Shown one piece after another: positions 8,415 through 22,085 of a DNA stretch of 64,000 nucleotides. Numbering within the stretch: the stretch's first letter is position 1; the number at the start of each line of letters is the position of its first letter. Below the pieces are notes generated by a model. It saw nothing but the letters and a program-made list of their open reading frames with translations. It did not search any database and had not been told where the DNA came from. The translations under genes and the position numbers were made by a program. Origin of the DNA: Escherichia coli O157 typing phage 14; the sequence record KP869112. One strand, written 5' to 3'.

Positions 8415-8426
8415 ACATTAATTCTA

Positions 8427-8450
8427 AAGCCCTCTTCGGAGGGCTTTTAT
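8427..8450 (+). terminator. intrinsic terminator AAGCCCTC-TTCG-GAGGGCTT + TTAT
   Basis: 8 bp stem with TTCG loop and T tract right after the 7365 gene. Confidence 0.6.
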
Positions 8451-8465
8451 GATCTGGAGATTTGC

Positions 8466-8999
8466 ATGACTTGTGCTAGAAAACCTGATGAACAACGTAA
8501 CGCCTACGATGAGTATGTGACACCGGAGTGGTGTGCAGAAGGGCTGTATGACCTTATTCCGTTCCCAGAAGACTGGACCTACTTAGAGCCTTGCAGGAAT
8601 AGTGCCTCAGGTGTGTTCTACTCCCGTATGCCGTTAGGATCTGCATGGGGAGAAATCCAAGAAGGTGTTGACTATCTGAATACAGAATACAACCATGTTG
8701 ACTGTATTATCACCAACCCACCATACAGCTTGGCTCGTGAGTTTGTAGACAAGGCGTTGAAAGATGCTGACGTAGTTATTATGCTTTTACGTCTTAATTT
8801 TCTGGAAAGCAAAGCCAGATTTGAATGGTGGCTTGATAATGCACCTACCACTGTGATCACAATATCTAAGCGTCCGTCATTTCAATCAAATGGCAGAACT
8901 GACGGGCAAGCATATGCATATTTTGTGTGGGATAAGAAAAACCGTTTAGGCTTGCCGCCATTTATGTGGTTGGCACCCCCAGAGGTAGACCTGAAATGA
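8466..8999 (+). CDS. DNA N6-adenine methyltransferase, phage Dam-like
   Basis: 177 aa; YVTPEW and catalytic NPPYS motifs in the order typical of small phage Dam enzymes. Confidence 0.65.
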   Translation: MTCARKPDEQRNAYDEYVTPEWCAEGLYDLIPFPEDWTYLEPCRNSASGVFYSRMPLGSAWGEIQEGVDYLNTEYNHVDCIITNPPYSLAREFVDKALKDADVVIMLLRLNFLESKARFEWWLDNAPTTVITISKRPSFQSNGRTDGQAYAYFVWDKKNRLGLPPFMWLAPPEVDLK

Positions 9000-9280
9000 A
9001 AATGAGTGCTAAGGACAAATTACACCAGTTAGCGCTAAAATGTCCTGTAACGCTCCCTGACGAGCTTAACTCCATTTATGATGCGATTGTAGGGGAGATA
9101 CAAAATAAAGCGTTAGCAGGCTTTCTGGGATGCGGATTTTCGATAAATCTACCCTCGCATCTCTCAGATTACTTCCCGCATATTGTTGGGGATTTGAGGG
9201 CAGGAGGTCTGCAGGTAGATGTTGTTGGCATCTCTCCAGAGAAAAATAATACGGTTGCCTACTTGACAGTAACCTGGTAG
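8996..9280 (+). CDS. hypothetical protein
   Basis: ATG overlapping upstream stop, GAGG RBS; ORF-track start 8966 likely an extension. Confidence 0.45.
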   Translation: MKMSAKDKLHQLALKCPVTLPDELNSIYDAIVGEIQNKALAGFLGCGFSINLPSHLSDYFPHIVGDLRAGGLQVDVVGISPEKNNTVAYLTVTW

Positions 9281-9314
9281 TAGTGTATTGTTGTTCTCAA
9301 CAAGGGGGTCATTT

Positions 9315-9554
9315 ATGTACAAGTCATTTTCAATTTACTCAAGACAGGCGAAACACTACACAGAGATCCTGATTACTCAGAAAAAATCTGTAGAAGGTGA
9401 GTGGGAATATCACCATAAAATGTTGCGTCCAGATTGGGTTTTTGATAGACTTATTGCCATGATCCCTCTTGGGGAAGTATACCCTCTGACAGGTGGGAGG
9501 GATGCTTGGGATTTAATTGATTACATAGATTCATTTAAGGAGCCCAGTGTATGA
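9315..9554 (+). CDS. hypothetical protein
   Basis: ATG with AAGGGGG RBS; ORF-track start 9288 likely an extension. Confidence 0.45.
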   Translation: MYKSFSIYSRQAKHYTEILITQKKSVEGEWEYHHKMLRPDWVFDRLIAMIPLGEVYPLTGGRDAWDLIDYIDSFKEPSV

Positions 9555-9949
9555 AGATTGAGATCACTAAAGAAGGTAAGAAAGTGTCTGGAGACTATGC
9601 AACAGTAATTCGAGATTTAATGTTTGAAACCACCAAGTTCGGCACATCTAAAGTTGGTCAAACTGTTAGTGTGCAAGGCAATATCACCACAGGGGAGAAG
9701 ATAATCATTGTAATCAAAGGGCAGGATCCTGTGGAAGGAACAGTGGGCCGAGGAGGATACCTGTGCATTTCTGAAGAGCCACGTATGCTGGTGGCTGACC
9801 ACACTACAGGTGGGAAACGTGTGTGCGAGGCGAATGAGGTAATGATTATTCAACCTGTTGATCCAGATGATCCAGCAACTTGGGTGGTAGGAAATGAAAT
9901 CTTCTCCTTAGAAGAGTTATCCTTCCCAGCCCCACGCTCTGTTCAGTAA
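9551..9949 (+). CDS. small acidic protein, MKIEI-type paralog family
   Basis: AAGGAG RBS; N-terminus MKIEIT and acidic C-terminus shared with other family members. Confidence 0.5.
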   Translation: MKIEITKEGKKVSGDYATVIRDLMFETTKFGTSKVGQTVSVQGNITTGEKIIIVIKGQDPVEGTVGRGGYLCISEEPRMLVADHTTGGKRVCEANEVMIIQPVDPDDPATWVVGNEIFSLEELSFPAPRSVQ

Positions 9950-9988
9950 TAATTTATCTTACCATGGACGGTAGAAGCAGGAGGTAGC

Positions 9989-10222
9989 ATGAAAGTTAAA
10001 TTTCTTACAGATTTAGGGTACCCTTCCTTGGTTGACTGCATTGGTAAAATTGTGGAAGCAAAACGGCTATCTGCAAACGATAATGTTGTCATGGTTAAGG
10101 GAAAAGATTTATTAGCTGCAGGTGCAGAGTCTGGCAGGATCTCTCCTGACTATACATATTACTTATCTTTAAGTAATCTACCAGAACGAGGCGGCAAAGG
10201 CCTTGAAGTTGTGGAGGAGTGA
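9989..10222 (+). CDS. small acidic protein, MKVK...EVVEE paralog family
   Basis: GGAGG RBS; MKVKFL N-terminus, ends LEVVEE. Confidence 0.5.
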   Translation: MKVKFLTDLGYPSLVDCIGKIVEAKRLSANDNVVMVKGKDLLAAGAESGRISPDYTYYLSLSNLPERGGKGLEVVEE

Positions 10223-10227
10223 CAGGT

Positions 10228-10764
10228 ATGCTTCTGATTAACTGGGAAGACCTCTATGGGGACAAAGACCCTGTTGCGTTTGTTGATCGTAGATGGAGAT
10301 ACACTGAAGAACAACTGGCTGCAAAAAATTTAACTGCGAAACGCAGAAAGATCATCCAGTGCAAGTACAAATACGCACAATTTGCTGCAAAAGTGTCTCC
10401 ACAAATCGAGAGTTTTGTACTTAAATTGTATGACGAATACCTCAAGTTCAAATTGGATTTTGTACAGGTGTACCGTGCACAGGTACGCCCAGATACCAAC
10501 ATATGTAGATGGAAGGTTGTTTGTGACGGTAAAGATTTGCCGCTCAGCTTGACAATTGAGTGGCGTTATGGGTATCATGAGTGTGGTCTGTATGATATTT
10601 GGGATGTCATTGTAGATCCTGCTAAGTACCTGAACACAGAGGAGCTGGAATATATCAATAAGGTTATTCTCGATATGTTTTTCAGATACACCCGTGAAAA
10701 CTCTGAGAAAGAACGGGATGATTTTCTTGACACCATCAGCAACCATCTGCAGTATACAATTTAA
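10228..10764 (+). CDS. hypothetical protein
   Basis: ATG with GGAGGAG RBS; ORF-track start 10219 is a short extension. Confidence 0.5.
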   Translation: MLLINWEDLYGDKDPVAFVDRRWRYTEEQLAAKNLTAKRRKIIQCKYKYAQFAAKVSPQIESFVLKLYDEYLKFKLDFVQVYRAQVRPDTNICRWKVVCDGKDLPLSLTIEWRYGYHECGLYDIWDVIVDPAKYLNTEELEYINKVILDMFFRYTRENSEKERDDFLDTISNHLQYTI

Positions 10765-10782
10765 CCTACAAAGGGAGGGCTA

Positions 10783-11019
10783 ATGAGTATAAATGTTGTG
10801 CTAATAGGCTACCTGGTAATAGCCGTTATAACAGCGGTATTCTTGACAGGTATATGCATCGTGTCTAGACGAAAGGTGAAGTTTGATGATTTTATCACCA
10901 TCATCACTGCTGCACCTTTTTGGCCTATTGTTATCTTCATCGTAATAATGTGCCTAGTTGATTACTACAAGAATATTCGTAAGGAGAAAAAGGAGAGTAG
11001 GGATGGAGACCGCACCTAA
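10783..11019 (+). CDS. small membrane protein
   Basis: AAGGGAGGG RBS; two hydrophobic helices followed by basic tail. Confidence 0.45.
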   Translation: MSINVVLIGYLVIAVITAVFLTGICIVSRRKVKFDDFITIITAAPFWPIVIFIVIMCLVDYYKNIRKEKKESRDGDRT

Positions 11020-11132
11020 AGCTGTTTATACTGTTCTTAAAGAGATTGCGTTCTACGCAGATCTTAGCCAGGCACCTTTATGGGAAAAGAGCATGTATTT
11101 AAAATGGTGCGTTAATTTAGGGAGACCTTCCA

Positions 11133-11621
11133 GTGTTTCAAGCCATGTTTATTGAGATGCTATCTGGGGTATTGTTACTGGTAGCCATCTTAGGTGGTGC
11201 AGTTCTGATGTATAACTATCTTGAAAAAGGAGAAATTTTAACAAAATCTGGAAAGATAACTTTGATACCTCTTGATAGTAAAGGTAAAGACCCGTCACGA
11301 CTTGTTATAGATGATTACGTTACAGGTGTGACGTTCGAGGTCTCTGTGGAGAGGTTAATACGCAGAGCTGGCGGCCCTTATGACCGAAGAGAGTATGTTT
11401 TCGATTCCGTTACAGAGATGGGGGAGCATCCGTCTTTAATGTTCAGGATGGTAATCAGGGATATGAGGTCATCTATAGATAGGATCGTAAAGGACATTAA
11501 GGAACCTTTTAGGGTAAAAGTTAAGAAGTTTTTTGATTCTAAGATTAACATACTTGCTGTTGTGCTAGGCGTAATTCAACTTCTGTTAATTTTGCACTAT
11601 TTTGAACTGTTGTTTAAGTAG
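11133..11621 (+). CDS. membrane protein
   Basis: GTG start with AGGGAG RBS; N-terminal and C-terminal hydrophobic segments. Confidence 0.45.
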   Translation: MFQAMFIEMLSGVLLLVAILGGAVLMYNYLEKGEILTKSGKITLIPLDSKGKDPSRLVIDDYVTGVTFEVSVERLIRRAGGPYDRREYVFDSVTEMGEHPSLMFRMVIRDMRSSIDRIVKDIKEPFRVKVKKFFDSKINILAVVLGVIQLLLILHYFELLFK

Positions 11622-11681
11622 TGTGCAACAAGGCACAAAGGATGTGCCATAATTAAACAAATTAAGAAAGAGGTAGAGAGA

Positions 11682-12029
11682 ATGTCAAAGATTAAATCGA
11701 TATTAATGTGGGTAGCTGTTGTGGCTTTTGTAGGATACTGGACTTGGGAAACTGAATTAAAAGATATCGGATATACCAGTCTTGAGAGCAAGGCATGCAT
11801 TGGCATAACCGATGCATTCAGGCAAAATGCTATGGATCACGAATGTGTCGATGCAGATATAGATGAGAAACTATCTAAGGACAAGGATTTTTACCATGGT
11901 CATGCCTTGCTTGATAGTGGTGACACTGTAGAATTCTGGTCGTGGTTCCGTGAAGATGGAACAATAAAGACAGCAGTAAAGATTTCCAACAAAGAGTTAA
12001 TGCTGTTGCAGCAGAAGGAGGCTCAATGA
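11682..12029 (+). CDS. hypothetical protein with N-terminal transmembrane segment
   Basis: RBS AAGAAAGAGG; hydrophobic N-terminus. Confidence 0.5.
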   Translation: MSKIKSILMWVAVVAFVGYWTWETELKDIGYTSLESKACIGITDAFRQNAMDHECVDADIDEKLSKDKDFYHGHALLDSGDTVEFWSWFREDGTIKTAVKISNKELMLLQQKEAQ

Positions 12030-12313
12030 TCTGGATATCTTATACTGATGGCACCATGCTGTATACTGCAGGTACCAGATATGAAGTTCAGGAGAACGAT
12101 AAAAAATTTATCGTAAGAACATTTGACAAGGACGACAACCTTTTGCTAGAATTGACTTACAAGGTTGGAGAGGTATCCAATATCCAATTGGATTGTGGTC
12201 ATAAAGATAATCCACTCAAAAAACCTGGAATAGGCAAGGCTTCAGAAGAACGTTTGTCTCGTATTGCAGAAAGCGTTTCTCCCCAAAAATCCAAGAAGAG
12301 GATTAGAAAATGA
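12026..12313 (+). CDS. hypothetical protein
   Basis: ATGA overlap with upstream gene; no motif. Confidence 0.5.
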   Translation: MIWISYTDGTMLYTAGTRYEVQENDKKFIVRTFDKDDNLLLELTYKVGEVSNIQLDCGHKDNPLKKPGIGKASEERLSRIAESVSPQKSKKRIRK

Positions 12314-12510
12314 GTGACAAAATTCTTAAATTTAATACCTACTATGAGAATGATTTGAACGATCTGTATTATATAGTGCGTAGCGAAAACCCAAATGTAG
12401 TTCTGTTTTGCCGAGAACCTTTCAAAAAAGAGGAGATTGAATCTACCATGAATGTGGATCAGATTTCACACCTGCTGCTCCTTGGATCATTAAAAGAGGC
12501 AGTATTCTAA
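12310..12510 (+). CDS. hypothetical protein
   Basis: ATGA overlap with upstream gene; no motif. Confidence 0.45.
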   Translation: MSDKILKFNTYYENDLNDLYYIVRSENPNVVLFCREPFKKEEIESTMNVDQISHLLLLGSLKEAVF

Positions 12511-12529
12511 ACCAGGGTGGAGGGTTTTT

Positions 12530-12715
12530 ATGAAGCATTATTGTCTGTCTGGTAGATTGGGTGCAGATTGTGATTGGGTTTTCTTAAAACTTGTCAGCAT
12601 TCGAGAGTCCATCTCAGAAGAAGAGCAAGAAAGTGAGCTGATGTCATGGATCAACCATTACGGTAACACTTTTCGGCATGTTAAGGTAGAAGAGTTGCCA
12701 AGCGAGGCTGATTGA
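12530..12715 (+). CDS. hypothetical protein
   Basis: RBS GGTGGAGGG; no motif. Confidence 0.4.
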   Translation: MKHYCLSGRLGADCDWVFLKLVSIRESISEEEQESELMSWINHYGNTFRHVKVEELPSEAD

Positions 12716-12717
12716 CT

Positions 12718-12807
12718 ATGATTGCATCAATATTAACGTTTATGGGTGGCGTGGCATTCGGATTCATTGTTTGCCTGTTTATAGTGATTATGTCTATGCG
12801 AGGCTGA
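12718..12807 (+). CDS. small hydrophobic peptide (29 aa)
   Basis: ATG right after upstream stop; single predicted TM helix; below ORF-track cutoff. Confidence 0.3.
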   Translation: MIASILTFMGGVAFGFIVCLFIVIMSMRG

Positions 12808-12810
12808 ATT

Positions 12811-13107
12811 ATGAAACTTTTTGAGTGGTTTAAAAAGTTTAAATATAAAGCTGTAGCCATCGTGCCGTGGTCCATTCAGTGGGTTGATGAAGGTGGTCTA
12901 CCAATACCTGGTGACAAAGATACTGGGTACTGGATTATGATGGAGAACGGGTTTGGAAAGCGAAAGTATACGTGCACAAACTCTACTCGATCTGCGCTTA
13001 ATAGAGTGCCTGGTTACAAACTTATGGTTGTGTGGAAAATGTCAGGCGTGCCTCCAGCTAATGCTCAATTTCTTACTGACAATCCGACCACGGTAGAGGG
13101 AGATTGA
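12811..13107 (+). CDS. hypothetical protein
   Basis: ORF-track ORF in operon-like packing; no motif. Confidence 0.5.
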   Translation: MKLFEWFKKFKYKAVAIVPWSIQWVDEGGLPIPGDKDTGYWIMMENGFGKRKYTCTNSTRSALNRVPGYKLMVVWKMSGVPPANAQFLTDNPTTVEGD

Positions 13108-13391
13108 TAATGAAAAAGATTAACAGTGGTGAAGTTGAGTTTAAACTTGTCGGGAAAGGCACTTACTGGGAAGTTCGTCAAAAGGTATATTTGTTCGGTC
13201 TTATTCCCTATTGGTCTAAATTCTACTGGGGAGCTAACGAGTGGGGAAGATACGCCACCAAATCAATGGCACTTATTGGTATAGCAGAGTACATTGCAGC
13301 CAGAGATAGGGTTGGAGACACTTATTACTATACTGCGGACGATATTCGTAACAGTGTTTACGTCCCACAACCACCTGATGGAGACCGTTGA
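13104..13391 (+). CDS. hypothetical protein
   Basis: Overlapping start/stop; no motif. Confidence 0.5.
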   Translation: MIMKKINSGEVEFKLVGKGTYWEVRQKVYLFGLIPYWSKFYWGANEWGRYATKSMALIGIAEYIAARDRVGDTYYYTADDIRNSVYVPQPPDGDR

Positions 13392-13615
13392 TGAAAGTTA
13401 AAGTTTTAGATTCAAGCTTCTATATTGGTCAGGAGCCTTTAGTAGGAAAAGTGTTTACTGCTGTCCCTAACGAAGATTACCCTGACCTTTTAAAAATAAA
13501 AGGAGCAGATCTTATTGCCGCTGGTGCATCTCAGGAATGCTTTGACAGTCAGTGGACCTACAACTTTGCCCTAGGTGAGGATGTAGAGGTAGTGGAGGAC
13601 GATCATGAAGGTTAA
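13388..13615 (+). CDS. small acidic protein, MKVK paralog family (cassette copy 1, gene a)
   Basis: MKVKVL N-terminus, ends EVVEDD; paralog of 15477-15740. Confidence 0.5.
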   Translation: MMKVKVLDSSFYIGQEPLVGKVFTAVPNEDYPDLLKIKGADLIAAGASQECFDSQWTYNFALGEDVEVVEDDHEG

Positions 13616-13859
13616 AATTCTTGATTCTAACGTCTACTTGGGACAATCCTTCCTGAATGGAAAGGTCGTTCCTGCGGTATACTTTGAAGGGTTGCCGTGG
13701 GATGATCCTGTGCGGCAACATCACAGTTATGTAGGCCACAACGTGGTGTTTATCTTGGGATCAGACCTGATCACCGCTGGTGCACCTGAATATTATTTCG
13801 GGGAAGAGTCCTACTATGCCTTTGGGGTAGGGTCAGATGCAGATATTGTAGAGCTGTGA
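13605..13859 (+). CDS. small acidic protein, MKVK paralog family (cassette copy 1, gene b)
   Basis: MKVKIL N-terminus; AFGVGSDADIVEL tail matches AFVVGSDVEVIEE of 15745-16077. Confidence 0.5.
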   Translation: MKVKILDSNVYLGQSFLNGKVVPAVYFEGLPWDDPVRQHHSYVGHNVVFILGSDLITAGAPEYYFGEESYYAFGVGSDADIVEL

Positions 13860-13871
13860 TGGGTAACCGTT

Positions 13872-14270
13872 GTGAAAAATAAACTGTTTAAAGTTACAAT
13901 GAAAATTCGCGGGGCTTGGAGCGTAAAGCAAGGGCGTATTCCAGAATTTGAGAAAGACTTCTACGTAGTCTCCACCTCGGAGGAGGCTGCATGCTGGCAG
14001 GCTGGCTATGCCTATGCAAGAACCTGGTACGAAGGATACCAGACTGGGGGCTATGACGGAGAAATTATCAGCAAGGGTGTAGAAGAAATTAATGTGTTGA
14101 CAAGTGAAAAAGTTTTTGTTATAGTGCATCCAGATTCCAGAGTGAAGCATTACTGGAATGCCAGAACAAAAACTTGGACACCGTTTGCAGATTCTGCTAC
14201 GCCACTTTTAAACCAGAAAGCTCTTGACTCTGCCCCAAGTTATGGGGTTGTTGAAGAAAAGCTAAACTGA
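13872..14270 (+). CDS. hypothetical protein (cassette copy 1, gene c)
   Basis: HPDSRVKHYWNARTKTWTPF matches HPHSNIAYYWDVLNNEWTPDL of 16077-16472. Confidence 0.5.
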   Translation: MKNKLFKVTMKIRGAWSVKQGRIPEFEKDFYVVSTSEEAACWQAGYAYARTWYEGYQTGGYDGEIISKGVEEINVLTSEKVFVIVHPDSRVKHYWNARTKTWTPFADSATPLLNQKALDSAPSYGVVEEKLN

Positions 14271-14287
14271 AACAGTGAGGTGTCACC

Positions 14288-14578
14288 ATGATGGATTTAA
14301 TTCTAAATATTGATAACGCAGGAGAGTTTAAAGACGAGGGTGTAACAAGCATGGACAAACCCTGCTCTGCTAAGGTTGACTCAAAATGGACCTACAAGTT
14401 TGACGGAGAGATCTTCGCAAATGATGAGAAGGTTGTAGATGCTGCAGCCATTTTAAACGCTCTAGGGTACGACCCTGTGAATTCTTTGATCAAGGATCCT
14501 GTTGAGTTTGCAGAGTATGTTCGAAAAATGGCAGATCTTGCTGTGGATATTTTAAAAACTATCGACAACAAGCTGTAA
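14288..14578 (+). CDS. hypothetical acidic protein
   Basis: RBS GTGAGG; no motif. Confidence 0.5.
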   Translation: MMDLILNIDNAGEFKDEGVTSMDKPCSAKVDSKWTYKFDGEIFANDEKVVDAAAILNALGYDPVNSLIKDPVEFAEYVRKMADLAVDILKTIDNKL

Positions 14579-14584
14579 AAACTG

Positions 14585-14613
14585 TTGACACAACGCTTCA
14601 GATTTAGTATCAT
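14585..14613 (+). promoter_or_regulatory. sigma70-like promoter (TTGACA, 17 nt, TATCAT)
   Basis: Upstream of hpf-like gene. Confidence 0.35.
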
Positions 14614-14660
14614 TGTTTTCAAAGATGGTTTGGTTCCCTCTTCTTTAAAAGGAACACGTT

Positions 14661-14978
14661 ATGCAAATTGAAATCACTGGCAACGTAGAAATCACTGAAG
14701 GTATGGTGTCTTTCATTTCCCACAAAATGTCTAAGCTGGAGCGTTTGCACCCCTCTGCCAACTATGCACGTGTGAGTGTAAAAGTTGAAAATGATCACCA
14801 GGAAGTTATGGCGCTCATTTTTGACAATTCTGGAAAAGAAGTTATTGCCAAGGCTAAAGGTAGTGATGCTTACGAGGCAACTGACCGTATGGTAGATGTT
14901 GCAGCACGTCAGCTGGCTAAATGCGGTGGAAAGAAAGGTAAGGGGAAAGGCAAAGTAAAGATTGACTTTGGAGAATGA
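14661..14978 (+). CDS. hpf: ribosome hibernation promoting factor / RaiA (YfiA) family protein
   Basis: N-terminus MQIEITGNVEITEGM... and ...AYEATDRMVDVAARQLAK closely track bacterial HPF (MQLNITG..VEITEAL ... ARQL); lysine-rich tail. Confidence 0.75.
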   Translation: MQIEITGNVEITEGMVSFISHKMSKLERLHPSANYARVSVKVENDHQEVMALIFDNSGKEVIAKAKGSDAYEATDRMVDVAARQLAKCGGKKGKGKGKVKIDFGE

Positions 14979-15115
14979 GGTGCTACAATGGGCGTGATTA
15001 AGAAACTAGTCCCAAATGTAGAGATTGCATGCTTTGAAATTATGTTTGCAATCGCAGTTGTAGTTAATGTGTTAGGTTACGGCTATTAATATCAAATAAT
15101 TGAGGAGACCTCTAA

Positions 15116-15385
15116 ATGAAAATTAAATTATTCAAAACTGAGCTGGCAGACAAAAACTGTGGACTGGTTGAAGGCATGATTGTCGAAGCACAACCAGTTG
15201 ACTATATGAAGGTGGTTCGTGATGCCCTGGGTGAAGGTTTTGATCTGATGGAGCCAGCTCTGCGAGAAGATGTTATCGAGATGGCTAAAAAGCACACACC
15301 TGAAGGAATGGTGGTGTTTGTTGCACCAGGTAACGGAGAAGAGTTGATTGTAACTCCGGATGTGTATGAGATTGTAGAGGAATAA
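15116..15385 (+). CDS. small acidic protein, MKIK...EIVEE paralog family
   Basis: RBS GAGGAGA; ends YEIVEE. Confidence 0.5.
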   Translation: MKIKLFKTELADKNCGLVEGMIVEAQPVDYMKVVRDALGEGFDLMEPALREDVIEMAKKHTPEGMVVFVAPGNGEELIVTPDVYEIVEE

Positions 15386-15476
15386 TCCTGCTTGGATTAG
15401 CATACTTCCTCGACAAGGAAGGTTTGTAATTATTTGTGGGAAAGGAATCCCAATCTCTTACCATAGGTGATACTAT

Positions 15477-15740
15477 ATGATTGTTTATTTTAAAACTTCA
15501 GGTGGATACCCTGATTCTCAAAGCTTGATCGGAAAAACGTGCACAGCATACTCACCTCTTGATGAGGAGGTAGGCGATATTCTACGAAATATGTATCGGA
15601 TTGATCCCCAAGAAGCCTTTGATCAAAACCTTGTATTTGTCAAGGGCTCAGACATGAAGTCTTTGGGAGCATTCCCTGAAGCAGATGATGATGCCGTTTA
15701 TTCGTTCATGACCCCTTTTGAAGCTATGGTTGTCGGGTGA
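15477..15740 (+). CDS. small acidic protein (cassette copy 2, gene a)
   Basis: Paralog of 13388-13615 (GYP...LIGK..TA...KGSD motifs). Confidence 0.5.
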   Translation: MIVYFKTSGGYPDSQSLIGKTCTAYSPLDEEVGDILRNMYRIDPQEAFDQNLVFVKGSDMKSLGAFPEADDDAVYSFMTPFEAMVVG

Positions 15741-15744
15741 TAAT

Positions 15745-16077
15745 ATGAAAGTACGCTTTATTGGTGAAACAATTCCTGTGCATCTCCGGTCGCCTGAGGA
15801 TTCTGCAGATCTTGCATCTCAGAAAGCGAGAGGCTATGATAAGAAAGTAACCTCAACCGGTGTAGTGCTTGAGGCTACTAGTCTACCTGACCCTGCTGCA
15901 TTCTTTAATCATTATGGGTACTATTTCAGCAATCTTATGAATATCGGTGAGCTTGTGTTTATTAGTGGTGGAGAGATTGTTAGCAAGCTTGGCGGCGATC
16001 CGGATGTCTTTCATGAAACCTGTCCTTTTGCATTTGTGGTAGGTTCAGATGTGGAAGTTATTGAGGAGGTGCGGTAA
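15745..16077 (+). CDS. small acidic protein, MKVR paralog family (cassette copy 2, gene b)
   Basis: ATG with GGGTGA RBS; ends VGSDVEVIEEVR. Confidence 0.5.
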   Translation: MKVRFIGETIPVHLRSPEDSADLASQKARGYDKKVTSTGVVLEATSLPDPAAFFNHYGYYFSNLMNIGELVFISGGEIVSKLGGDPDVFHETCPFAFVVGSDVEVIEEVR

Positions 16078-16472
16078 TGGTAAGCCTATACCGTGTTGAG
16101 TATAGCTCAGATACTGTATACAACGTAAGAAGCAAAGATCGCAGCAACAGAGTGCAAGAAATGTATGTTCTTGCCGACAGTCCGTTATCTGCAGCGTTCA
16201 AGGCAGGGGCTCTTGCATCTCGTTGGAAATTTGAAGGCGGATCTTTCTATGAAGAAACCCTTGAAGATTCTGTTGTTATTTCTTCTGTAGAGGTTTCAGA
16301 TGACTACGAAGGGAAAAAGTTCGTAATGCGGCACCCACACAGCAACATTGCGTACTACTGGGATGTTCTGAACAACGAGTGGACCCCAGATCTTCAGAAG
16401 GCCACTGTGCTAACACCGTTTTTGGCAGATAAGTTCCCACCAGAAGGTAATTTATCCGCACTGTTTCAGTAA
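16077..16472 (+). CDS. hypothetical protein (cassette copy 2, gene c)
   Basis: RBS GAGGAGG; paralog of 13872-14270. Confidence 0.5.
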   Translation: MVSLYRVEYSSDTVYNVRSKDRSNRVQEMYVLADSPLSAAFKAGALASRWKFEGGSFYEETLEDSVVISSVEVSDDYEGKKFVMRHPHSNIAYYWDVLNNEWTPDLQKATVLTPFLADKFPPEGNLSALFQ

Positions 16473-16490
16473 TTTTCTTGCACACAGGTG

Positions 16491-16519
16491 TTGACAACAC
16501 CAACCCTGTGTGAAATAAT
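16491..16519 (+). promoter_or_regulatory. sigma70-like promoter (TTGACA, 17 nt, AATAAT)
   Basis: Upstream of 16552 gene. Confidence 0.4.
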
Positions 16520-16551
16520 ACCTTCATCTTAACAAGACGGGAGACTGATTG

Positions 16552-16809
16552 ATGAAGATTAAACTGAAAAACCTTGAAATGGCAGAGATTCAGGATGGTG
16601 TTGATTTCCGCTCTAAAGATGGTGACATCTTAGAGGTAAATCTTCCAACCTACGAGCTGATTAAAGGTTTTGGCAACGTTCAGGAAGAGGATATTCCAGA
16701 AATTCTTATGATGTTGATTCTTGACGGAACTGTGTTTGTAGGTGAAGGTGAGAACGCTATTGCAATCCCAGGCCATTTTTATGAAGTAGTTGACGAAGAG
16801 GTGCTGTAA
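16552..16809 (+). CDS. small acidic protein, MKIK...EVVDEEVL paralog family
   Basis: RBS GGGAGA. Confidence 0.5.
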   Translation: MKIKLKNLEMAEIQDGVDFRSKDGDILEVNLPTYELIKGFGNVQEEDIPEILMMLILDGTVFVGEGENAIAIPGHFYEVVDEEVL

Positions 16810-17160
16810 ATGAAAGTAGAAATTACTGGTTTTGATGTTAGTGTGGTTCCGGAAGATATTTTAGCTAACTTACCGGAAGGTTTTGGTAACGGTGTTGTGG
16901 TGGATGCTGTTCCTCCTACCAAAGACATTCTGCTGCAGTATGGTGTAGCAGAGGAAGATGTCGATAAAGTTCTTACAATGATGGCAATCGATCGTGTTGT
17001 CGTTGTTAAAGGTCTCGATAATTTTGAGAGTGATCCTCTGATTATTCGCGGAGATGACTACAAAATCATCGATAATGAAGGCCAAGAGTTCTATGAGCCT
17101 TGTGCAGAAGATATTCTTAACTTATTACTGGAAGCAGGCACCGAAGAGGAGGACGAATAA
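16810..17160 (+). CDS. small acidic protein, MKVEI paralog family
   Basis: ATGA-type overlap; very acidic C-terminus. Confidence 0.5.
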   Translation: MKVEITGFDVSVVPEDILANLPEGFGNGVVVDAVPPTKDILLQYGVAEEDVDKVLTMMAIDRVVVVKGLDNFESDPLIIRGDDYKIIDNEGQEFYEPCAEDILNLLLEAGTEEEDE

Positions 17161-17489
17161 TGAAGATTGACCAGTTACTGAAGGCTCGTGCAGAAAAAGC
17201 GTACACCATTAAGCTGACCAACCTGGTTCCTACTTGTCATCCGGATGTAGGTTGGCCCGAAGGTCTGGTAGAGGGAACTGTAACAGCTGCATACCTTCCT
17301 AACATCAAGTACCTTATGGAGATCTTAGAGATGGATGAGGAAACTGCAGAACAGTTCCAGTTAGATATGAAACAGAGTGGGACTCTGGTTATTCACGGGT
17401 GGTATAATACTAAAGATGCAGAAGACCCTCTGGTAACTTCTAATCTGGCATATGAAATCTTAGGGCCTTTGAACCTGGAGGAAGACTAA
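17160..17489 (+). CDS. small acidic protein
   Basis: Overlapping start; no motif. Confidence 0.5.
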   Translation: MKIDQLLKARAEKAYTIKLTNLVPTCHPDVGWPEGLVEGTVTAAYLPNIKYLMEILEMDEETAEQFQLDMKQSGTLVIHGWYNTKDAEDPLVTSNLAYEILGPLNLEED

Positions 17490-17776
17490 TGAAAGATCTG
17501 GTTAAGATTAAGATTAAAGATACCAATGGAGAACTCAGCCATTTTGGAATTAATGATGGTGACGAGCTGATCGCACACCTGCCTACTAAGGAGGTTGTAA
17601 GCAAAGCAGTTGCAGGAGAAGAAGCTGCAATGCAGGCTGCAGGTGTGGATGAAAACTATGTAGCTATGTGCATGTGCCGAGATCAGGTTGTTCTGTATAA
17701 AGCGTATCGACCAAACGGAGCCACGGAGTGGCTTGTATTCCGACCCGAAGGATATGAAATCTTAGAGGCACTATGA
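17489..17776 (+). CDS. small acidic protein
   Basis: Overlapping start; no motif. Confidence 0.5.
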   Translation: MKDLVKIKIKDTNGELSHFGINDGDELIAHLPTKEVVSKAVAGEEAAMQAAGVDENYVAMCMCRDQVVLYKAYRPNGATEWLVFRPEGYEILEAL

Positions 17777-17865
17777 TAAATCTTGCCAAGGTTGCAACGG
17801 CACTGCTAATTATTTGCTGGTCAGTAACCTTAACACTGTGTCTTGTATTTCAGTGAGGTGCTTGT

Positions 17866-18129
17866 ATGAACATCCTGATGTGGGTTATAGCAGTGGCGTT
17901 TGTTGCATGTTTTTGCTGCTGGGTTGCGGTGAGGATTTCTGTAGCTACCCTTCGGAAGTTGGGGTTCTCAGAATGGGATATTAATATCCTTTCTTTTCGC
18001 AATGAAACAATCTCAGCCGCCCTGCTTTGTAAGAAATTCAAGTGGGAACCTTGTGAGGTCATGAGCTATCTAAGAACAGGCGATATCCCTGAAAGATTTA
18101 AAAAAGTTCTTGACGGCAAGGATAAATGA
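17866..18129 (+). CDS. small membrane protein
   Basis: RBS GTGAGG; hydrophobic N-terminal helix. Confidence 0.45.
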   Translation: MNILMWVIAVAFVACFCCWVAVRISVATLRKLGFSEWDINILSFRNETISAALLCKKFKWEPCEVMSYLRTGDIPERFKKVLDGKDK

Positions 18130-18284
18130 CAGTATAGTGACTAACAAGAGGTGAGGAGTGACTGATTTTACTGAAGCTTTAATGATGGCCTTGTCTGTTT
18201 TAGCGCTATCGGTGTGTTTTGGGGCGTTATTCACATCTCTGGTTAAAGTTTTACATACAATATTATTACCCAAGGAGCGCAGTA

Positions 18285-18536
18285 ATGACGAAGATTGACT
18301 TGAATGCTGGCGATCATGTTGTTGTCAAATGCATTGGAGATTATCTTGGATTCACAATCGGCAATACTTACGAGGCGGTAGTGGCGAAGGTTTATCATGA
18401 TAAAGTCCTCAGTCTTGTATTTGACTGCGATGATGATGGGGATGACCGATACGTCTGTGAGGTGCTGGCACGAGACGATAGTGAAGACCAGAAATTTCTG
18501 GTTATTGAACTGAACGGTATTTTTGTAGAACGTTAA
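18285..18536 (+). CDS. hypothetical protein
   Basis: ATG with AAGGAG RBS; ORF-track start 18219 is an extension. Confidence 0.5.
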   Translation: MTKIDLNAGDHVVVKCIGDYLGFTIGNTYEAVVAKVYHDKVLSLVFDCDDDGDDRYVCEVLARDDSEDQKFLVIELNGIFVER

Positions 18537-18564
18537 TTTAAAACAACATAAGGAGACTCTTACT

Positions 18565-18870
18565 ATGGCTAAATCTAAAGTTGAACTGTTCACCTCTCTT
18601 CCTTCTGACACTGCAGAGCGTGATCGCCTTCGCAAAACAATCGAAGAACTGGTGGAACTCCAACTTCAGATTAAAGATCTGAAAGATGCCATTAAGGATA
18701 TCATTCTTGTTGAGAAGCAGGATCATTTGTATTCTCCTAAATTCATCAAATCTCTGGTGGCTACCGAGTTCGATATTCGATATGAGGCTGAAAAACGTCG
18801 AGCTAAAATCGAAGAAGAGGTTGAGCACATGTCTGAGGCAGACATTCTGTTCAAACGCTCTGTAGAATAA
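18565..18870 (+). CDS. hypothetical protein (coiled-coil-like)
   Basis: RBS AAGGAGA. Confidence 0.5.
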   Translation: MAKSKVELFTSLPSDTAERDRLRKTIEELVELQLQIKDLKDAIKDIILVEKQDHLYSPKFIKSLVATEFDIRYEAEKRRAKIEEEVEHMSEADILFKRSVE

Positions 18871-18876
18871 TGACAA

Positions 18877-18905
18877 AGAGGGGGGGCTTAGGCCCCTCTT
18901 TTTAC
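18877..18905 (+). terminator. intrinsic terminator AGAGGGGGGGC-TTAG-GCCCCTCT + TTTTT
   Basis: Strong GC stem plus T run immediately after stop of 18565 gene. Confidence 0.7.
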
Positions 18906-18926
18906 TATCTATGAAGGAGATTTGAG

Positions 18927-19259
18927 ATGGGCATGCCGATCACTGTAAAAGAATTGAATGAACGTGATGCAGGTGGTCTATGGCCTGCACGAAAAATCCG
19001 TTGCATCCGTATGAAAGAGAACCTTGAACATCTTGAGCAACAGAAACGGATTGAGGTTGGTGATATTTTCGAAGTATTTTATTCTGATCGCCGTAACTGG
19101 GAAACCATTCAACCTTCCGGTCTTGTTCTTGCTAAGCTTGACACTGGAGAAGTGATTGTTCCTGGGTTGGATATTGTCTTCGAAATTATCCAGGAGTGGG
19201 ATCCGGACAAGATTAGATACGAAGAGTTATTCGGTAAAGGTATTATCAAACCTGTGTGA
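18927..19259 (+). CDS. hypothetical protein
   Basis: RBS GAAGGAGA. Confidence 0.5.
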   Translation: MGMPITVKELNERDAGGLWPARKIRCIRMKENLEHLEQQKRIEVGDIFEVFYSDRRNWETIQPSGLVLAKLDTGEVIVPGLDIVFEIIQEWDPDKIRYEELFGKGIIKPV

Positions 19260-19267
19260 GGTGGATT

Positions 19268-19567
19268 ATGTCTACAAAGGCGGCTAAATACTCCTACATA
19301 CCATCAACCTCTGCAGAGGTAGACTTTAGTTTCGATGTGTTTCCACTGTTTGAGGTGGTTCTGGCATACCCAACAATACTATCTACTCCTGAGTCACTTG
19401 TGCCTGTTAAGTTGCAGAACGCTATGCATTCTATGCACTACAACAATAAATGTAGGCACAGATGGTGTCAGGACGAGGAAAAAGATCTGGATAGTTTGAG
19501 AGATTTTGACAATCACCTTTTGACACCTTTCAGCTACTCCAACCTTGATAAGCCCTCATGGGTATAG
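19268..19567 (+). CDS. hypothetical protein
   Basis: ATG with GAGGTGG RBS; ORF-track start 19256 is a short extension. Confidence 0.5.
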   Translation: MSTKAAKYSYIPSTSAEVDFSFDVFPLFEVVLAYPTILSTPESLVPVKLQNAMHSMHYNNKCRHRWCQDEEKDLDSLRDFDNHLLTPFSYSNLDKPSWV

Positions 19568-19592
19568 CAAAATATCAAATTTAAGACACCTA

Positions 19593-19620
19593 GGACGCTC
19601 TGTGGCGTCCTTTTCTTTAT
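19593..19620 (+). terminator. intrinsic terminator GGACGC-TCTGTG-GCGTCC + TTTTCTTTAT
   Basis: 6 bp stem and T-rich tail after 19268 gene. Confidence 0.65.
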
Positions 19621-19780
19621 CTGGTGCACGATTGCATACCTTTGACAGATAATCTCATTACAGAGCGTTTAAGAGCTTCCTACAAACAAATCTCTCTTTC
19701 GAGCGTAGCGAGAACGCACGTCCGTTTTGACCCAAATCACCATACGCTCGGATTTTAACCAAACCCTCGCGGCGTTTCTA

Positions 19781-19809
19781 TTGACACATTACCGCTCCAG
19801 TGATAATAT
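19781..19809 (+). promoter_or_regulatory. sigma70-like promoter (TTGACA, 17 nt, TAATAT)
   Basis: Upstream of small peptide gene at 19842. Confidence 0.5.
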
Positions 19810-19841
19810 CCACACATAGTTTGTAGAATATGGGGTACACT

Positions 19842-19931
19842 ATGAGAACATTGTCCGAAGTTTTGGTGGTGATCCTGATGATCATTACGTCCATAGCGGC
19901 TGTTGCCGGAATACTCACGGGTGGAACATGA
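19842..19931 (+). CDS. small hydrophobic peptide (29 aa)
   Basis: ATG 33 nt downstream of promoter -10; single TM helix; stop overlaps next ATG. Confidence 0.35.
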   Translation: MRTLSEVLVVILMIITSIAAVAGILTGGT

Positions 19932-20140
19932 TAAACACACATGCATCTGAAGAGACATCCAAAGGAGTGACTATATGTCCCTTGGCTGAGCCAGTGAAAG
20001 AGGAAAACTTCGATTCTGAAGATTCTCCATCTTCGCTCCAGGTAGATCCTGAGGCTGATGACCTAACGTGGGAAGACATCGTAGATATCTGGTTCTCTAT
20101 TATGCCTGAGCACGAAGAGTTCAGGGGTGGTAGACTATGA
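19928..20140 (+). CDS. small acidic protein
   Basis: ATGA overlap with upstream peptide gene. Confidence 0.4.
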   Translation: MINTHASEETSKGVTICPLAEPVKEENFDSEDSPSSLQVDPEADDLTWEDIVDIWFSIMPEHEEFRGGRL

Positions 20141-20261
20141 AGCACCGAGCCCACACAGGTTCCTCATGCTAAAGCATGGCCTGAAGAGGCAAACGTGCAT
20201 AATTCCTGTACATTGGGACGTATAAAACCCTGTTCACATTCTCATTTCCAGAGGAGATTTC

Positions 20262-20477
20262 ATGAAGATAGAAATATTTGGTGGAGCTGACAATACTCGT
20301 GGCCTGATTTACCTTGAATTCGATGAATCATACCTGCCAGAGGTGTTAAATATGGACTCTGTTGCTGATGCTTTGGGAGTAAGTCCTAAAGATCTCTACT
20401 CTGGTGCTGAGATTGATGGTTGGGAGGAGACCATGAACATTGATTTCAGTGAAGTAGGTGATGAACCACTGGACTGA
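20262..20477 (+). CDS. small acidic protein, MKIEI paralog family
   Basis: RBS GAGGAGA; MKIEIFGG N-terminus. Confidence 0.5.
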   Translation: MKIEIFGGADNTRGLIYLEFDESYLPEVLNMDSVADALGVSPKDLYSGAEIDGWEETMNIDFSEVGDEPLD

Positions 20478-22085
20478 CACACAATTAGCTACCCGGCTAA
20501 AGTGCTGGGAGCACCTATAACACATCTTTCAACTAAATTTCCTACCACCACAATCACTTACCTCCCACACATGACTGTTTGCTTGTTTAGTGAGCAGTCA
20601 TGCCTTGACATTCTTGCCTATCCTGATAAAATTAAGTTCTTCTCTTTTCTTTTACCGAGTAATTCGGGTTTTCTGTTCTCTTCGGTTTGAAGGGGTATGG
20701 AGATACACCTGAGTGAACAGGGTGAACAACCGAACCATTGGCTATGGCATTAGCATGGCGAAGCGGACGGGTGACGAAAGAGGGGCCGGAGGACACCAGT
20801 CACTGCCATATGATATATAGGTGATAACCTGAAGAGTCTGAATAAGTGTTTAAGTACCAGTCAGAGGAAAAGGTGAATGGTAGCCGAAGGGGGAGGGGGG
20901 TTTCTTGTATCTTTAATTTGTATATTATGTATACACTTGTAAACCAACACCATCTGAATTTGCTTACCACACAAAGCGGATAGAGACAAATATTACCTAT
21001 TAAACTTGAATTATTTATAGAAAATACCACAACACCACTTAAGTCTTTGATTTTACACATAAATCCTACAGATATTCACCCTCCATATTTAACATACTTG
21101 TAACATATCTATACCCAACCTGTCTGATCAACTCACCCAACTACATCCTCCATATTTCCCCTGTCTGTACTACCCCTGCCCAGCCGGGAGTCCCGTCATA
21201 TCTGGCTTTCCAGCAAATATCACACCCACAAATATCATTGCCTGAAGAGGGTTTCATCCCATAATACATGCCTTACCTGAAGAGCGCTTCATACACCACG
21301 TAAATTTTTTAATTGACCTGCAATTTTCCCGTCATGACCCCCTGCCCCGCCAGAGAGGTTGACTTTTCCCACACAGACCTGAAGAGCCAGCCAGAAATAT
21401 CTGAACAGGTCCAGTTATACCACGATTTTGACCTGACCGACAGGAGTGCCTCCCTGTCAGGAGCCGGTAGCGACTGGAGTGCTGCCAGGCGGACGAAATG
21501 GGAATACTTCTCATTCTTATAATAATTCTCAAATATCGAGGCAGTGAGGCAAATTAATAGGTGAGGCCGTTCACACAGTGGCACAACATTTGCAACCTAT
21601 CTTGTGGGGTGAATGAGAATACCTATCATTGTGAGAATAGTTATCATTACGGGCAATTTAACATAATACCCATTATGCGCACCACTGGCGATACATACAG
21701 GGGTTGATAACATGAGTTACTGTTTACGCACATAACAATTATATTTCTTACTATTTGTGTGGGATATAGTTAGCAGCCGATAGATTAGATATTGACCTGT
21801 AGACTTCCAACCGTCTAGACGTCTAAACGCCCACACAACAAGGCTTATACATACATCACTGAATGTAAACAGGACCGCAAAAATGCTACCATACAAGCTT
21901 GTAAATTTTTCATGCAGCACTTGACAAAGAGGAGGAAAACTTGTCTGACACACTGGGCACAACATAACATACTGCAGCACAATATGACACAATAACGACT
22001 GTTATTATTTCATGTTTCACTGTTCACGTATAGATTGTTCCCGCATAGACTGTTTACGCCTGGATAGTTCACGCATAGATGATAA

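What the first reader, a model, noticed from the sequence alone, without database searches (positions are those of the whole stretch)
14661..14978. Phage-encoded ribosome hibernation factor (HPF/RaiA) homolog
The 105 aa product aligns by eye along its length with bacterial HPF/YfiA (MQ.xITG..VEIT... and the ...A.D.mvD..ARQLaK block) and ends in a lysine/glycine-rich tail. A phage copy in an early block behind its own promoter suggests manipulation of host translation, either silencing host ribosomes or preserving them.
Basis: partly seen in the sequence, partly recalled or inferred. Interest (0 to 1): 0.65.

Follow-up and report, generated by a model that had tools for sequence, protein, structure and literature searches.

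The report
Known phage copy of ribosome-hibernation factor
This gene of an rV5-like E. coli phage really is a diverged copy of the bacterial ribosome hibernation factor HPF, but it has been annotated since 2006 and was published and partly tested in 2019, and what it does during infection is still unknown.

Summary
A 105-aa ORF at 14661-14978 (+) follows a near-consensus sigma70 promoter and an SD. It passes the curated HPF/YfiA thresholds (Pfam 49.2 vs 23.7 bits; TIGR00741 46.6 vs 40.9). [quoted passage not shown] A disordered Lys/Gly tail follows. The finding is not new. The window is a Vequintavirus and the gene is rV5 ORF144, annotated "sigma 54 modulation factor" in 2006. Mizuno et al. 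2019 listed it as a viral HPF and expressed it in E. coli. What I add:
- The gene is core to the genus (about 118 of 118 records). It sits at the same position in two uncultured sister clades (64% and 56% identity) and is under strong purifying selection (omega about 0.04).
- It is a narrow, fast-diverged offshoot of enterobacterial short HPF (about 43% identity). It is an equivalog of neither HPF nor RaiA.
- Contact residues K23, K26, R83 and K87 are kept, while K80, T53, H55 and H62 are replaced.
- The published failure to find it on ribosomes carries little weight. The host's own HPF and RMF were also missing from those 500 mM NH4Cl-washed preparations.
Most likely it still docks in the 30S decoding channel of idle host ribosomes. 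Its role in infection is untested.

The parts
14585..14613 (+). Sigma70-type promoter (TTGACA, 17 nt, TATCAT), equivalent to rV5 promoter P144
   Evidence: The consensus scan matches 11 of 12 positions. The site is annotated as promoter P144 in DQ832317. The -35 box and its flank AAACTGTTGACACA are conserved in phage clades A and B but absent in clade C. It is one of 8 near-consensus + strand promoters between 5.5 and 20.6 kb. No transcription data were found.
14649..14653 (+). Shine-Dalgarno sequence AAGGA, 7 nt upstream of the ATG
   Evidence: Read directly from the sequence. A possible hairpin over it (GGTTCC...GGAAC) is no more stable than shuffled sequence, z = +0.85.
14661..14978 (+). 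CDS of the phage HPF-family protein, 105 aa plus stop; orthologue of rV5 ORF144 (ABI79209), 99% identical
14661..14927 (+). Core S30AE/HPF domain, residues 1-89: beta1 2-7, alpha1 13-29, beta2 33-43, beta3 46-55, beta4 60-67, alpha2 70-89
   Evidence: The AlphaFold2 model has pLDDT 87-96 over residues 1-80. Foldseek gives 4hei at rmsd 1.0 A and 6h4n_x at 1.1 A. Pfam covers residues 3-88.
14928..14975 (+). Lys/Gly-rich basic C-terminal tail, residues 90-105 (GKKGKGKGKVKIDFGE), predicted disordered
   Evidence: pLDDT is below 50 for residues 90-105. Net charge is +4, against +2 for the 7-residue E. coli HPF tail. The tail sequence is not conserved between clades (pN 0.46-0.56, against 0.21-0.24 for the core), but it is basic (+3) in all of them. 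Natural +/-1-nt frameshift variants keep only the proximal KKGKG part.

Best explanation
The gene encodes a phage-adapted member of the HPF/YfiA (Ribosomal_S30AE) family. It derives from a gammaproteobacterial short HPF. It is fixed as a core gene of Vequintavirus and is transcribed by host RNA polymerase from a sigma70 promoter. These points are shown here or rest on strong inference. I infer that the protein still docks in the channel between head and body of the host 30S subunit, over the mRNA path and the A- and P-site tRNA positions. It would use the alpha1 basic pair (K25 and R28, equal to E. coli K26 and Q29), the alpha2 residues R83 and K87, two lysines gained on beta4 (K64 and K66), and the flexible Lys-rich tail. 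Binding would be restricted to vacant ribosomes and would be salt-labile and reversible. The most likely benefit to the phage is preservation. Ribosomes that fall idle after host mRNA is lost would be shielded from the RNases that attack the 16S 3' minor domain, and so kept for phage protein synthesis. Rough probabilities: family membership 0.97, binding at the canonical site 0.6, protective role 0.35.
For: Family membership: Pfam PF02482 scores 49.2 bits against a cut-off of 23.7, and TIGR00741 scores 46.6 against 40.9; clades B and C also pass. [quoted passage not shown] Origin: the best non-phage relatives are Enterobacterales short HPFs at 38-46% identity, and the HPF equivalog model scores 55.8 bits against 17.7 for the RaiA model. 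Function is retained: omega is 0.03-0.04 within clade A, and between clades the core is conserved although dS is saturated. The gene is present in every Vequintavirus record, 117-118 against 118 with DNA polymerase at 90% identity or more, and is syntenic in two uncultured sister clades. Interface: published contact residues K23, K26, R83 (contacts m4C1402), K87 and E44 are invariant in all three phage clades. Q29 is replaced by Arg, which is the family-typical basic residue and equals S. aureus R30. In S. aureus HPF, binding was lost only when all four helix basic residues were mutated, and the phage protein keeps three of those four. Protective role of hibernation factors: Prossliner 2021. 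The protein is not toxic, since continuous expression allowed growth to OD 1 with normal ribosome profiles.
Against: The only experiment on this protein detected it in crude extract but not in purified 70S or 100S ribosomes, and saw no effect on 100S. I judge that result weak, because host HPF and RMF were also in the extract but in none of the three ribosome preparations washed in 500 mM NH4Cl. Several contact residues that are invariant in Enterobacterales are replaced in every phage clade: K80 to V/T/I, T53 to L/F/R, H55 to F, H62 to I/M/L, and R33 to S/T. Affinity or geometry may therefore differ. No transcript timing, infection phenotype or binding data exist for this phage group. The protective role is inferred only by analogy with host factors.
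Confidence: 0.55

Rival explanations
1. Anti-hibernation competitor. The protein occupies the HPF/RaiA site only weakly and reversibly, and its extended basic tail reaches the RMF and anti-SD region, as the RaiA tail does. This would block RMF-dependent 100S formation and displace host RaiA or HPF. Ribosomes of starved or defence-arrested hosts would then stay available, or become available, for phage mRNAs.
For: Mizuno et al. proposed this idea. The tail is 10 residues longer than in E. coli HPF and is basic in all three clades. The RaiA tail is reported to run toward the RMF site, while the short HPF tail does not clearly do so. Host RaiA was detected on ribosomes of both control strains (1 and 6 spectra). 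It was not detected on ribosomes of the strain expressing the viral HPF, although it was present in that strain's extract. RMF rises during DRT2-mediated antiphage dormancy.
Against: The RaiA difference rests on n = 1 with very low spectral counts and uneven sample depth, so it is not significant. No effect on the small 100S peak was seen. P. aeruginosa HPF is 102 aa and still an HPF, so length alone does not predict antagonism of RMF. The tail sequence is unconstrained and partly dispensable.
Confidence: 0.2
2. Loss of ribosome binding with a new function. The HPF fold is kept, but the protein now binds another RNA or a protein partner, whether from phage or host.
For: It was absent from purified ribosomes. 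Five contact positions that are invariant in Enterobacterales are replaced in all phage clades. It scores far below the equivalog cut-off, 55.8 against 125. There is precedent for an HPF with a second, protein partner: S. aureus HPF binds YwlG (PMC9522360, listed).
Against: The substitutions mostly fall within what the wider family tolerates. At position 80, five of 24 diverse family members are non-basic (V2, T1, Q1, A1); F at position 55 occurs in 4 of 24; and a hydrophobic residue at position 62 is common. R83, K87, K26 and K23 are strictly kept under saturated dS. The negative binding test lacked a working positive control.
Confidence: 0.15
3. Host shut-off factor. Early, abundant expression blocks the decoding centre of host ribosomes and silences host translation.
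For: The gene has a near-consensus sigma70 promoter within a block of small early-type genes. The family's mode of action is translation inhibition.
Against: The binding site cannot tell host mRNAs from phage mRNAs. Cells expressing the protein continuously from pBAD24 (1 mM arabinose) grew to OD 1 with normal 70S profiles. HPF-family proteins bind vacant ribosomes, not translating ones (established knowledge of the family).
Confidence: 0.07

Closest known systems
rV5 ORF144 / ABI79209, the 'viral HPF' of Mizuno et al. 2019 (PMC6375957)
   Same: It is the same gene: 99% identical with one substitution (L52 in the window, F52 in rV5), in the same position behind promoter P144.
   Different: Nothing of substance differs. 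The window is simply another Vequintavirus isolate, closest to phiWec191 and FFH2 at 99.7-99.8% over 1.5 kb.
E. coli / Enterobacterales short HPF (YhbH; NF007780; PDB 2rql, 6h4n, 6y69)
   Same: The fold is the same (rmsd 1.1 A to 6h4n_x). Identity is about 43% over residues 1-89. The N-terminal MQ-ITG-VEITE block, K23, K26, E44, the D-Y-A-D helix cap, R83, Q84 and K87 are shared.
   Different: It scores 55.8 bits against an equivalog cut-off of 125, where a true HPF scores 202. It is 105 aa rather than 95, with a 16-residue Lys/Gly tail. K80, T53, H55, H62, R33 and D/E51 are replaced, and there is a 1-aa deletion in the beta1-alpha1 loop. It does not lie in the rpoN-hpf operon. No stimulation of 100S was seen.
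RaiA / YfiA / protein Y (NF007654; PDB 4v8i, 1n3g)
   Same: The fold and presumably the binding site are the same. Both have a C-terminal extension beyond alpha2 that is disordered. RefSeq names the phage protein RaiA.
   Different: It scores only 17.7 bits against a cut-off of 158. The core is clearly closer to HPF. The tail is basic and Gly/Lys-rich and shows no similarity to the RaiA tail, whose end is acidic (my recollection of the E. coli sequence, not checked here). 'HPF-like' is therefore a better name than RaiA.
Other HPF-family genes in phages (Cronobacter phage GAP32 AFC21633; PHROG 8990)
   Same: These are also phage-borne S30AE-domain proteins.
   Different: They are independent acquisitions. 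The window protein matches its own PHROG 12469 at E = 2e-70 but PHROG 8990 only at 1.5e-6. tblastn against 50,697 phage records finds it only in Vequintavirus.
Long HPF of Firmicutes and others (N-terminal S30AE domain plus C-terminal dimerisation domain)
   Same: The N-terminal domain fold is shared (8uu4, 5njt, 5ngm).
   Different: There is no C-terminal dimerisation domain. The protein ends 16 residues after alpha2, and PF02482 is its only Pfam match above threshold.

Membership tests
HPF/YfiA family (Pfam PF02482 Ribosomal_S30AE; TIGR00741) | Profile-HMM score above the curated family threshold | tested here: met
   PF02482 scores 49.2 against 23.7. TIGR00741 scores 46.6 against 40.9. Clades B and C score 47.2 and 43.0.
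HPF/YfiA family (Pfam PF02482 Ribosomal_S30AE; TIGR00741) | [quoted passage not shown] | tested here: met
   The AF2 model gives E2-7, H13-29, E33-43, E46-55, E60-67, H70-89. The top 35 Foldseek PDB hits are all HPF, YfiA or pY, with a best rmsd of 1.0 A and a target-normalised TM-score of 0.94.
HPF/YfiA family (Pfam PF02482 Ribosomal_S30AE; TIGR00741) | Basic patch on helix alpha1 (E. coli K26/Q29, S. aureus K27/R30) | tested here: met
   Phage K25 and R28 are invariant in clades A, B and C.
HPF/YfiA family (Pfam PF02482 Ribosomal_S30AE; TIGR00741) | Basic residues of helix alpha2 that contact 16S rRNA (K80, R83, K87, K91) | tested here: inconclusive
   R83 and K87 are invariant. K80 is V, T or I in the three clades. 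K91 is present in clade A only, or else depends on gap placement. Position 80 is non-basic in 5 of 24 diverse family members.
HPF/YfiA family (Pfam PF02482 Ribosomal_S30AE; TIGR00741) | Binds the 30S decoding channel of vacant ribosomes | not testable with these tools
   The published attempt was negative. It carries little weight, because host HPF and RMF were also absent from the same high-salt preparations.
Short HPF equivalog (E. coli YhbH; NF007780) | Score above the equivalog cut-off | tested here: not met
   It scores 55.8 against 125, while enterobacterial HPF P0010 scores 201.9.
Short HPF equivalog (E. coli YhbH; NF007780) | Converts RMF-induced 90S dimers to 100S, that is, promotes 100S | not testable with these tools
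   The literature reports no discernible effect on 100S in cells at OD 1. No in vitro test exists.
Short HPF equivalog (E. coli YhbH; NF007780) | About 95 aa with only a short tail after alpha2 | tested here: not met
   It is 105 aa with a 16-residue tail.
RaiA/YfiA equivalog (NF007654) | Score above the equivalog cut-off | tested here: not met
   It scores 17.7 against 158. Clade B scores 20.7 and clade C gives no hit.
RaiA/YfiA equivalog (NF007654) | C-terminal tail that occludes the RMF site | tested here: inconclusive
   An extended disordered tail exists, but its sequence is unrelated to the RaiA tail and poorly conserved. Its path on the ribosome cannot be modelled with these tools.
Long HPF | C-terminal dimerisation domain | tested here: not met
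   Pfam finds only PF02482, over residues 3-88, and the protein ends at residue 105.

The most novel reading that the evidence does not exclude
The phage protein is an anti-hibernation factor. It takes over the HPF/RaiA site on host ribosomes with fast, salt-labile kinetics, and its Lys-rich tail occludes the RMF site. This would prevent or reverse 100S and RaiA-70S dormancy, including dormancy triggered by starvation or by RMF-inducing defence systems such as DRT2. A lytic phage could then translate in non-growing gut E. coli.
Probability: 0.15. Interest if true: 0.7.

Novelty: already known. Interest (0 to 1): 0.3.

Why it matters
How lytic phages handle the ribosomes of slow-growing or dormant hosts is an open question, and phages that carry their own hibernation-family factor are a natural way into it. 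This gene is a good test case. It is core to an abundant, easily cultured coliphage genus, which includes the BASEL collection phages. It is under strong purifying selection. The one published functional test does not settle the matter, because the host's own HPF and RMF were also missing from those ribosome preparations. As a discovery, though, the gene is not new.

Tried and rejected
1. A hairpin over the SD in the 5' leader (GGTTCC...GGAAC) is no more stable than shuffled sequence (z = +0.85), so I rejected it as a regulatory element.
2. The word-seeded homologue search with the single protein returned only the phage clade. A seed alignment that included E. coli HPF was needed to reach bacterial homologues.
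3. I tried to read Polikanov 2012 and Franklin 2020 for contact and mutagenesis data, but neither paper is held. I used Basu & Yap 2016 and a 2025 cryo-EM preprint instead.
4. Searches for transcriptomics of rV5-like phages, or for any follow-up on the viral HPF, found nothing.
5. I considered a recent transfer from E. coli. blastn finds no match in 5,426 complete E. coli genomes and protein identity is only about 43%, so the transfer is not recent and the gene is not prophage-borne.
6. The 'hibernation factor' of Azotobacter phage TayeBlu is Balon-like, not HPF, and is not comparable.
7. I considered treating the absence of RaiA from ribosomes of cells expressing the viral HPF as evidence of displacement. 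Spectral counts are too low and n = 1, so I keep it only as a hint.
8. No tRNA genes occur in the window.

Full report
**What is there.** It starts with ATG at 14661, ends with the stop codon at 14976-14978 on the + strand, and encodes 105 aa. An AAGGA Shine-Dalgarno sequence lies 7 nt upstream. A TTGACA-17-TATCAT promoter-like site lies at 14585-14613. The protein ends in GGKKGKGKGKVKIDFGE.

**Identity of the window.** The 1.5 kb around the gene is 99.7-99.8% identical to Escherichia phages phiWec191 and FFH2, and 97.9% identical to rV5, the type Vequintavirus. In the rV5 GenBank record the gene is ORF144. It is annotated 'sigma 54 modulation factor' and preceded by the annotated sigma70 promoter P144. 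Other records call it HPF, RaiA or 'ribosome hibernation factor'. A few call it 'ATP-dependent protease La', which is wrong.

**Homology.**
- Pfam PF02482 (Ribosomal_S30AE) scores 49.2 bits against a gathering score of 23.7, covering model positions 1-83 of 88.
- NCBIfam TIGR00741 (HPF/YfiA family) scores 46.6 against a cut-off of 40.9.
- The short-HPF equivalog model scores 55.8 against 125, and the RaiA equivalog 17.7 against 158. A genuine enterobacterial HPF scores 201.9 on the HPF model.
- phmmer against PDB sequences aligns residues 1-89 to residues 1-89 of E. coli HPF at E = 4e-12.
- An AlphaFold2 model built on a 32-sequence alignment has mean pLDDT 84. Its elements are E2-7, H13-29, E33-43, E46-55, E60-67 and H70-89, followed by a tail (residues 90-105) with pLDDT below 50.
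- Foldseek against the PDB returns HPF, YfiA or pY proteins as its 35 best hits. V. cholerae HPF superposes at rmsd 1.0 A (target-normalised TM-score 0.91-0.94). E. coli HPF inside the 100S ribosome superposes at rmsd 1.1 A (TM-score 0.87).

**It is already known.** Mizuno et al. 2019 (PMC6375957) list rV5 ABI79209 and five sister phages as carrying an HPF. They place these proteins among gammaproteobacterial sequences in a phylogeny. They expressed the rV5 protein from pBAD24 in E. coli NM522. The protein was detected by mass spectrometry in crude extract but not in purified 70S or 100S ribosomes, and 100S levels did not change. Mathieu et al. 2020 mention it again as an auxiliary gene of rV5-like coliphages. 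Searches for any later functional work, or for rV5 transcriptomics, found nothing.

**Distribution and evolution (new here).**
- tblastn against 50,697 phage records finds the protein only in Vequintavirus: 117 phage records at 93% identity or more, plus one bacterial record that carries a cellular HPF.
- The DNA polymerase of the window occurs at 90% identity or more in 118 records. The gene is therefore effectively core to the genus.
- Sister genera whose polymerase is 52-59% identical (relatives infecting Klebsiella, Salmonella, Serratia and Pectobacterium) lack it.
- Large protein collections hold two further clades. Clade B is P0004, 103 aa and 64% identical. Clade C is P0011, 104 aa and 56% identical. 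Both sit on contigs of up to 137 kb from metagenomic or read-archive assemblies, at the same position in a colinear block of small genes. Neither clade is in the phage reference collection.
- An exhaustive phmmer scan of 1.84 billion cluster representatives finds only 27 hits at E of 1e-3 or better. Only clade B is close, and the next best hit is an enterobacterial HPF at 45% identity and E = 2.8e-7.
- Enterobacterial HPFs share most positions with one another, with 74% mean column identity across the 32-sequence alignment. The phage proteins are only 38-46% identical to them.
- blastn finds no similarity in 5,426 complete E. coli genomes.

The phage gene is thus an old, fast-diverged offshoot of short HPF, not a recent capture. 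It is nonetheless under strong constraint. Within clade A, dS is 0.70 and dN is 0.029, so omega is 0.04. Between clades dS is saturated, while pN is 0.21-0.24 in the core and 0.46-0.56 in the tail.

**The ribosome-binding surface.** I took contact residues from two sources. One is the cryo-EM comparison of HPF and YfiA on four Gram-negative ribosomes (bioRxiv 2025.10.07.680626). The other is mutagenesis of S. aureus HPF (PMC4889938). I mapped them onto the alignments, using E. coli numbering.
- Kept in all three phage clades: K23, K26, E44, R83 (the contact to m4C1402) and K87.
- Q29 becomes Arg, which is the majority state in the wider family and equals S. aureus R30.
- Replaced in every phage clade, although invariant in 28 Enterobacterales: K80 to V/T/I, T53 to L/F/R (the m2G966 contact), H55 to F (a uS9 contact), H62 to I/M/L, R33 to S/T, and D/E51 to M/S.
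- Two lysines are gained on beta4: S64 to K and E66 to K.

Most of these replacements lie within the range seen in 24 diverse family members. Position 80 is non-basic in 5 of 24, F at position 55 occurs in 4 of 24, and position 62 is often hydrophobic. In S. aureus, ribosome binding was abolished only when all four helix basic residues were mutated, and the phage protein keeps three of those four. I conclude that canonical binding is plausible, probably with altered affinity or detail.

**The tail.** Residues 90-105 are predicted to be disordered. Net charge is +4 in clade A and +3 in clades B and C, against +2 for the 7-residue tail of E. coli HPF. The three clade sequences are unrelated. Two isolates carry +/-1-nt frameshifts in the purine run. 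APECc02 ends in CGRKKGKGERQSKD and Murica in CGGKKGKGKAK. Only the proximal basic stretch is always present. The feature under selection seems to be a short flexible basic extension, not a motif. The RaiA tail is reported to head toward the RMF site. Whether the phage tail does the same cannot be determined here.

**The published negative result re-read.** Ribosomes were taken from cells at OD600 of about 1 and pelleted through 500 mM NH4Cl.
- The crude-extract table lists host RMF (9 spectra), HPF (4) and RaiA (6).
- The table for ribosomes from cells expressing the viral HPF has 71 proteins, and I read it in full. It contains none of these three.
- The two other ribosome tables contain RaiA (1 and 6 spectra) but neither HPF nor RMF.

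The host's own short HPF therefore did not survive this procedure either, or was not ribosome-bound at that growth stage. The absence of the viral protein says little about its ability to bind. RaiA is absent only from the viral-HPF ribosomes, which is a hint of competition for the shared site. With n = 1 and such low counts it is no more than a hint.

**Expression.** The promoter is one of eight near-consensus sigma70 sites on the + strand between 5.5 and 20.6 kb. They lie in a block of small same-strand genes that diverges from a - strand block holding the replication genes. This fits early transcription by host RNA polymerase, but timing has not been measured. The -35 region is conserved in clade B. 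In clade C the gene follows the upstream stop codon by about 30 nt, with only an SD between them. A dedicated promoter is therefore not a universal feature.

**Mechanism.** I commit to canonical docking in the 30S decoding channel of vacant ribosomes (probability about 0.6). The most likely benefit is preservation of idle ribosomes from RNase attack during infection (about 0.35). That role follows the one shown for host hibernation factors by Prossliner et al. 2021. The rivals are these:
- An anti-hibernation competitor that blocks RMF and displaces RaiA or HPF (0.2). This is Mizuno's hypothesis, and it links to the RMF induction seen with the DRT2 defence system.
- Loss of ribosome binding with a new partner (0.15).
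- Host shut-off (0.07). This is disfavoured because continuous expression was not toxic.

**Verdict.** What remains of interest is the unresolved function and the weakness of the one published negative test.

Noticed in passing
window 9989-10222, 13388-13615, 13605-13859, 15718-16077; and 13872-14270, 16077-16472: The small ORFs around the HPF gene fall into two paralogous families. Family a members are 30-40% identical (E from 2e-14 to 1e-3) and have acidic V-E-E/D C-termini. Family b members are 28% identical over 119 aa (E = 5.5e-8). A two-gene module [a][b] is duplicated on either side of the HPF gene. Neither family has any Pfam match on record.
   Followed up: partly
window 14988-15089 (+), with a promoter-like site at 14962-14989: A 33-aa hydrophobic ORF (MGVIKKLVPNVEIACFEIMFAIAVVVNVLGYGY, equal to rV5 ORF145) follows the HPF gene directly. 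A TTGACT-16-TACAAT site overlaps the HPF 3' end. The ORF is present only in clade A. Clades B and C have an 84-nt spacer carrying a different promoter-like site instead.
   Followed up: partly
GenBank MG0656xx records: About 18-21 unannotated records named 'Campylobacter phage' (host given as C. jejuni) are 96-99.8% identical to this E. coli Vequintavirus in the HPF region and the DNA polymerase. They are probably mislabelled or contaminating coliphages.
   Followed up: no
Orthologues of window 14661-14978 in OR062525, OR062530, MT884008 and MT884010: The same 105-aa protein is annotated 'ATP-dependent protease La Type I' in several records, which is an annotation error. PHROG 12469, the protein's own family, is still labelled 'unknown function'.
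   Followed up: no
L002-L005 (clade B) and L006-L008 (clade C), gene at 4001-4312/4315: Two uncultured Vequintavirus-like lineages carry syntenic HPF genes at 64% and 56% identity. Their contigs reach 137 kb and come from metagenomes or read-archive assemblies, and some are labelled E. coli at NCBI. They are only about 72-76% identical to known Vequintaviruses at the DNA level, over a quarter of the region. Neither lineage is in the 50,697-record phage collection.
   Followed up: partly
L012 (phage Murica) 301-600; L011 (APECc02) 301-606: The purine-rich run that encodes the Lys/Gly tail carries +/-1-nt indels in some isolates, giving proteins of 99 and 101 aa. These are either real slippage variants or homopolymer sequencing errors. 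Murica also has an extra Asn (GNNVEIT) that restores the loop length of E. coli HPF.
   Followed up: partly
window 42412-45189 (-), DNA polymerase: The polymerase gene is uninterrupted in the window (2,778 nt). In several close relatives it matches in 2-3 pieces spread over 3.0-4.0 kb (MG065674, phiWec196, YP-6). In a Klebsiella relative the pieces are annotated 'DNA polymerase (x3) | HNH endonuclease (x3)'. This suggests mobile intron, intein or homing-endonuclease insertions.
   Followed up: no
window 5541-20605 (+) and 23479-57980 (-): Near-consensus sigma70 promoters (11 of 12 matches or better) split cleanly by strand: 8 on the + strand between 5.5 and 20.6 kb, and 11 on the - strand between 23.5 and 58 kb. 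This indicates two divergent blocks transcribed by host RNA polymerase.
   Followed up: no
Mizuno et al. 2019, Supplementary Data 2-5: Host RaiA is detected on ribosomes from the bS21- and bL12-expressing control strains. It is not detected on ribosomes from the strain expressing the viral HPF, although it is present in that strain's crude extract. Host HPF and RMF are absent from all three ribosome preparations.
   Followed up: partly
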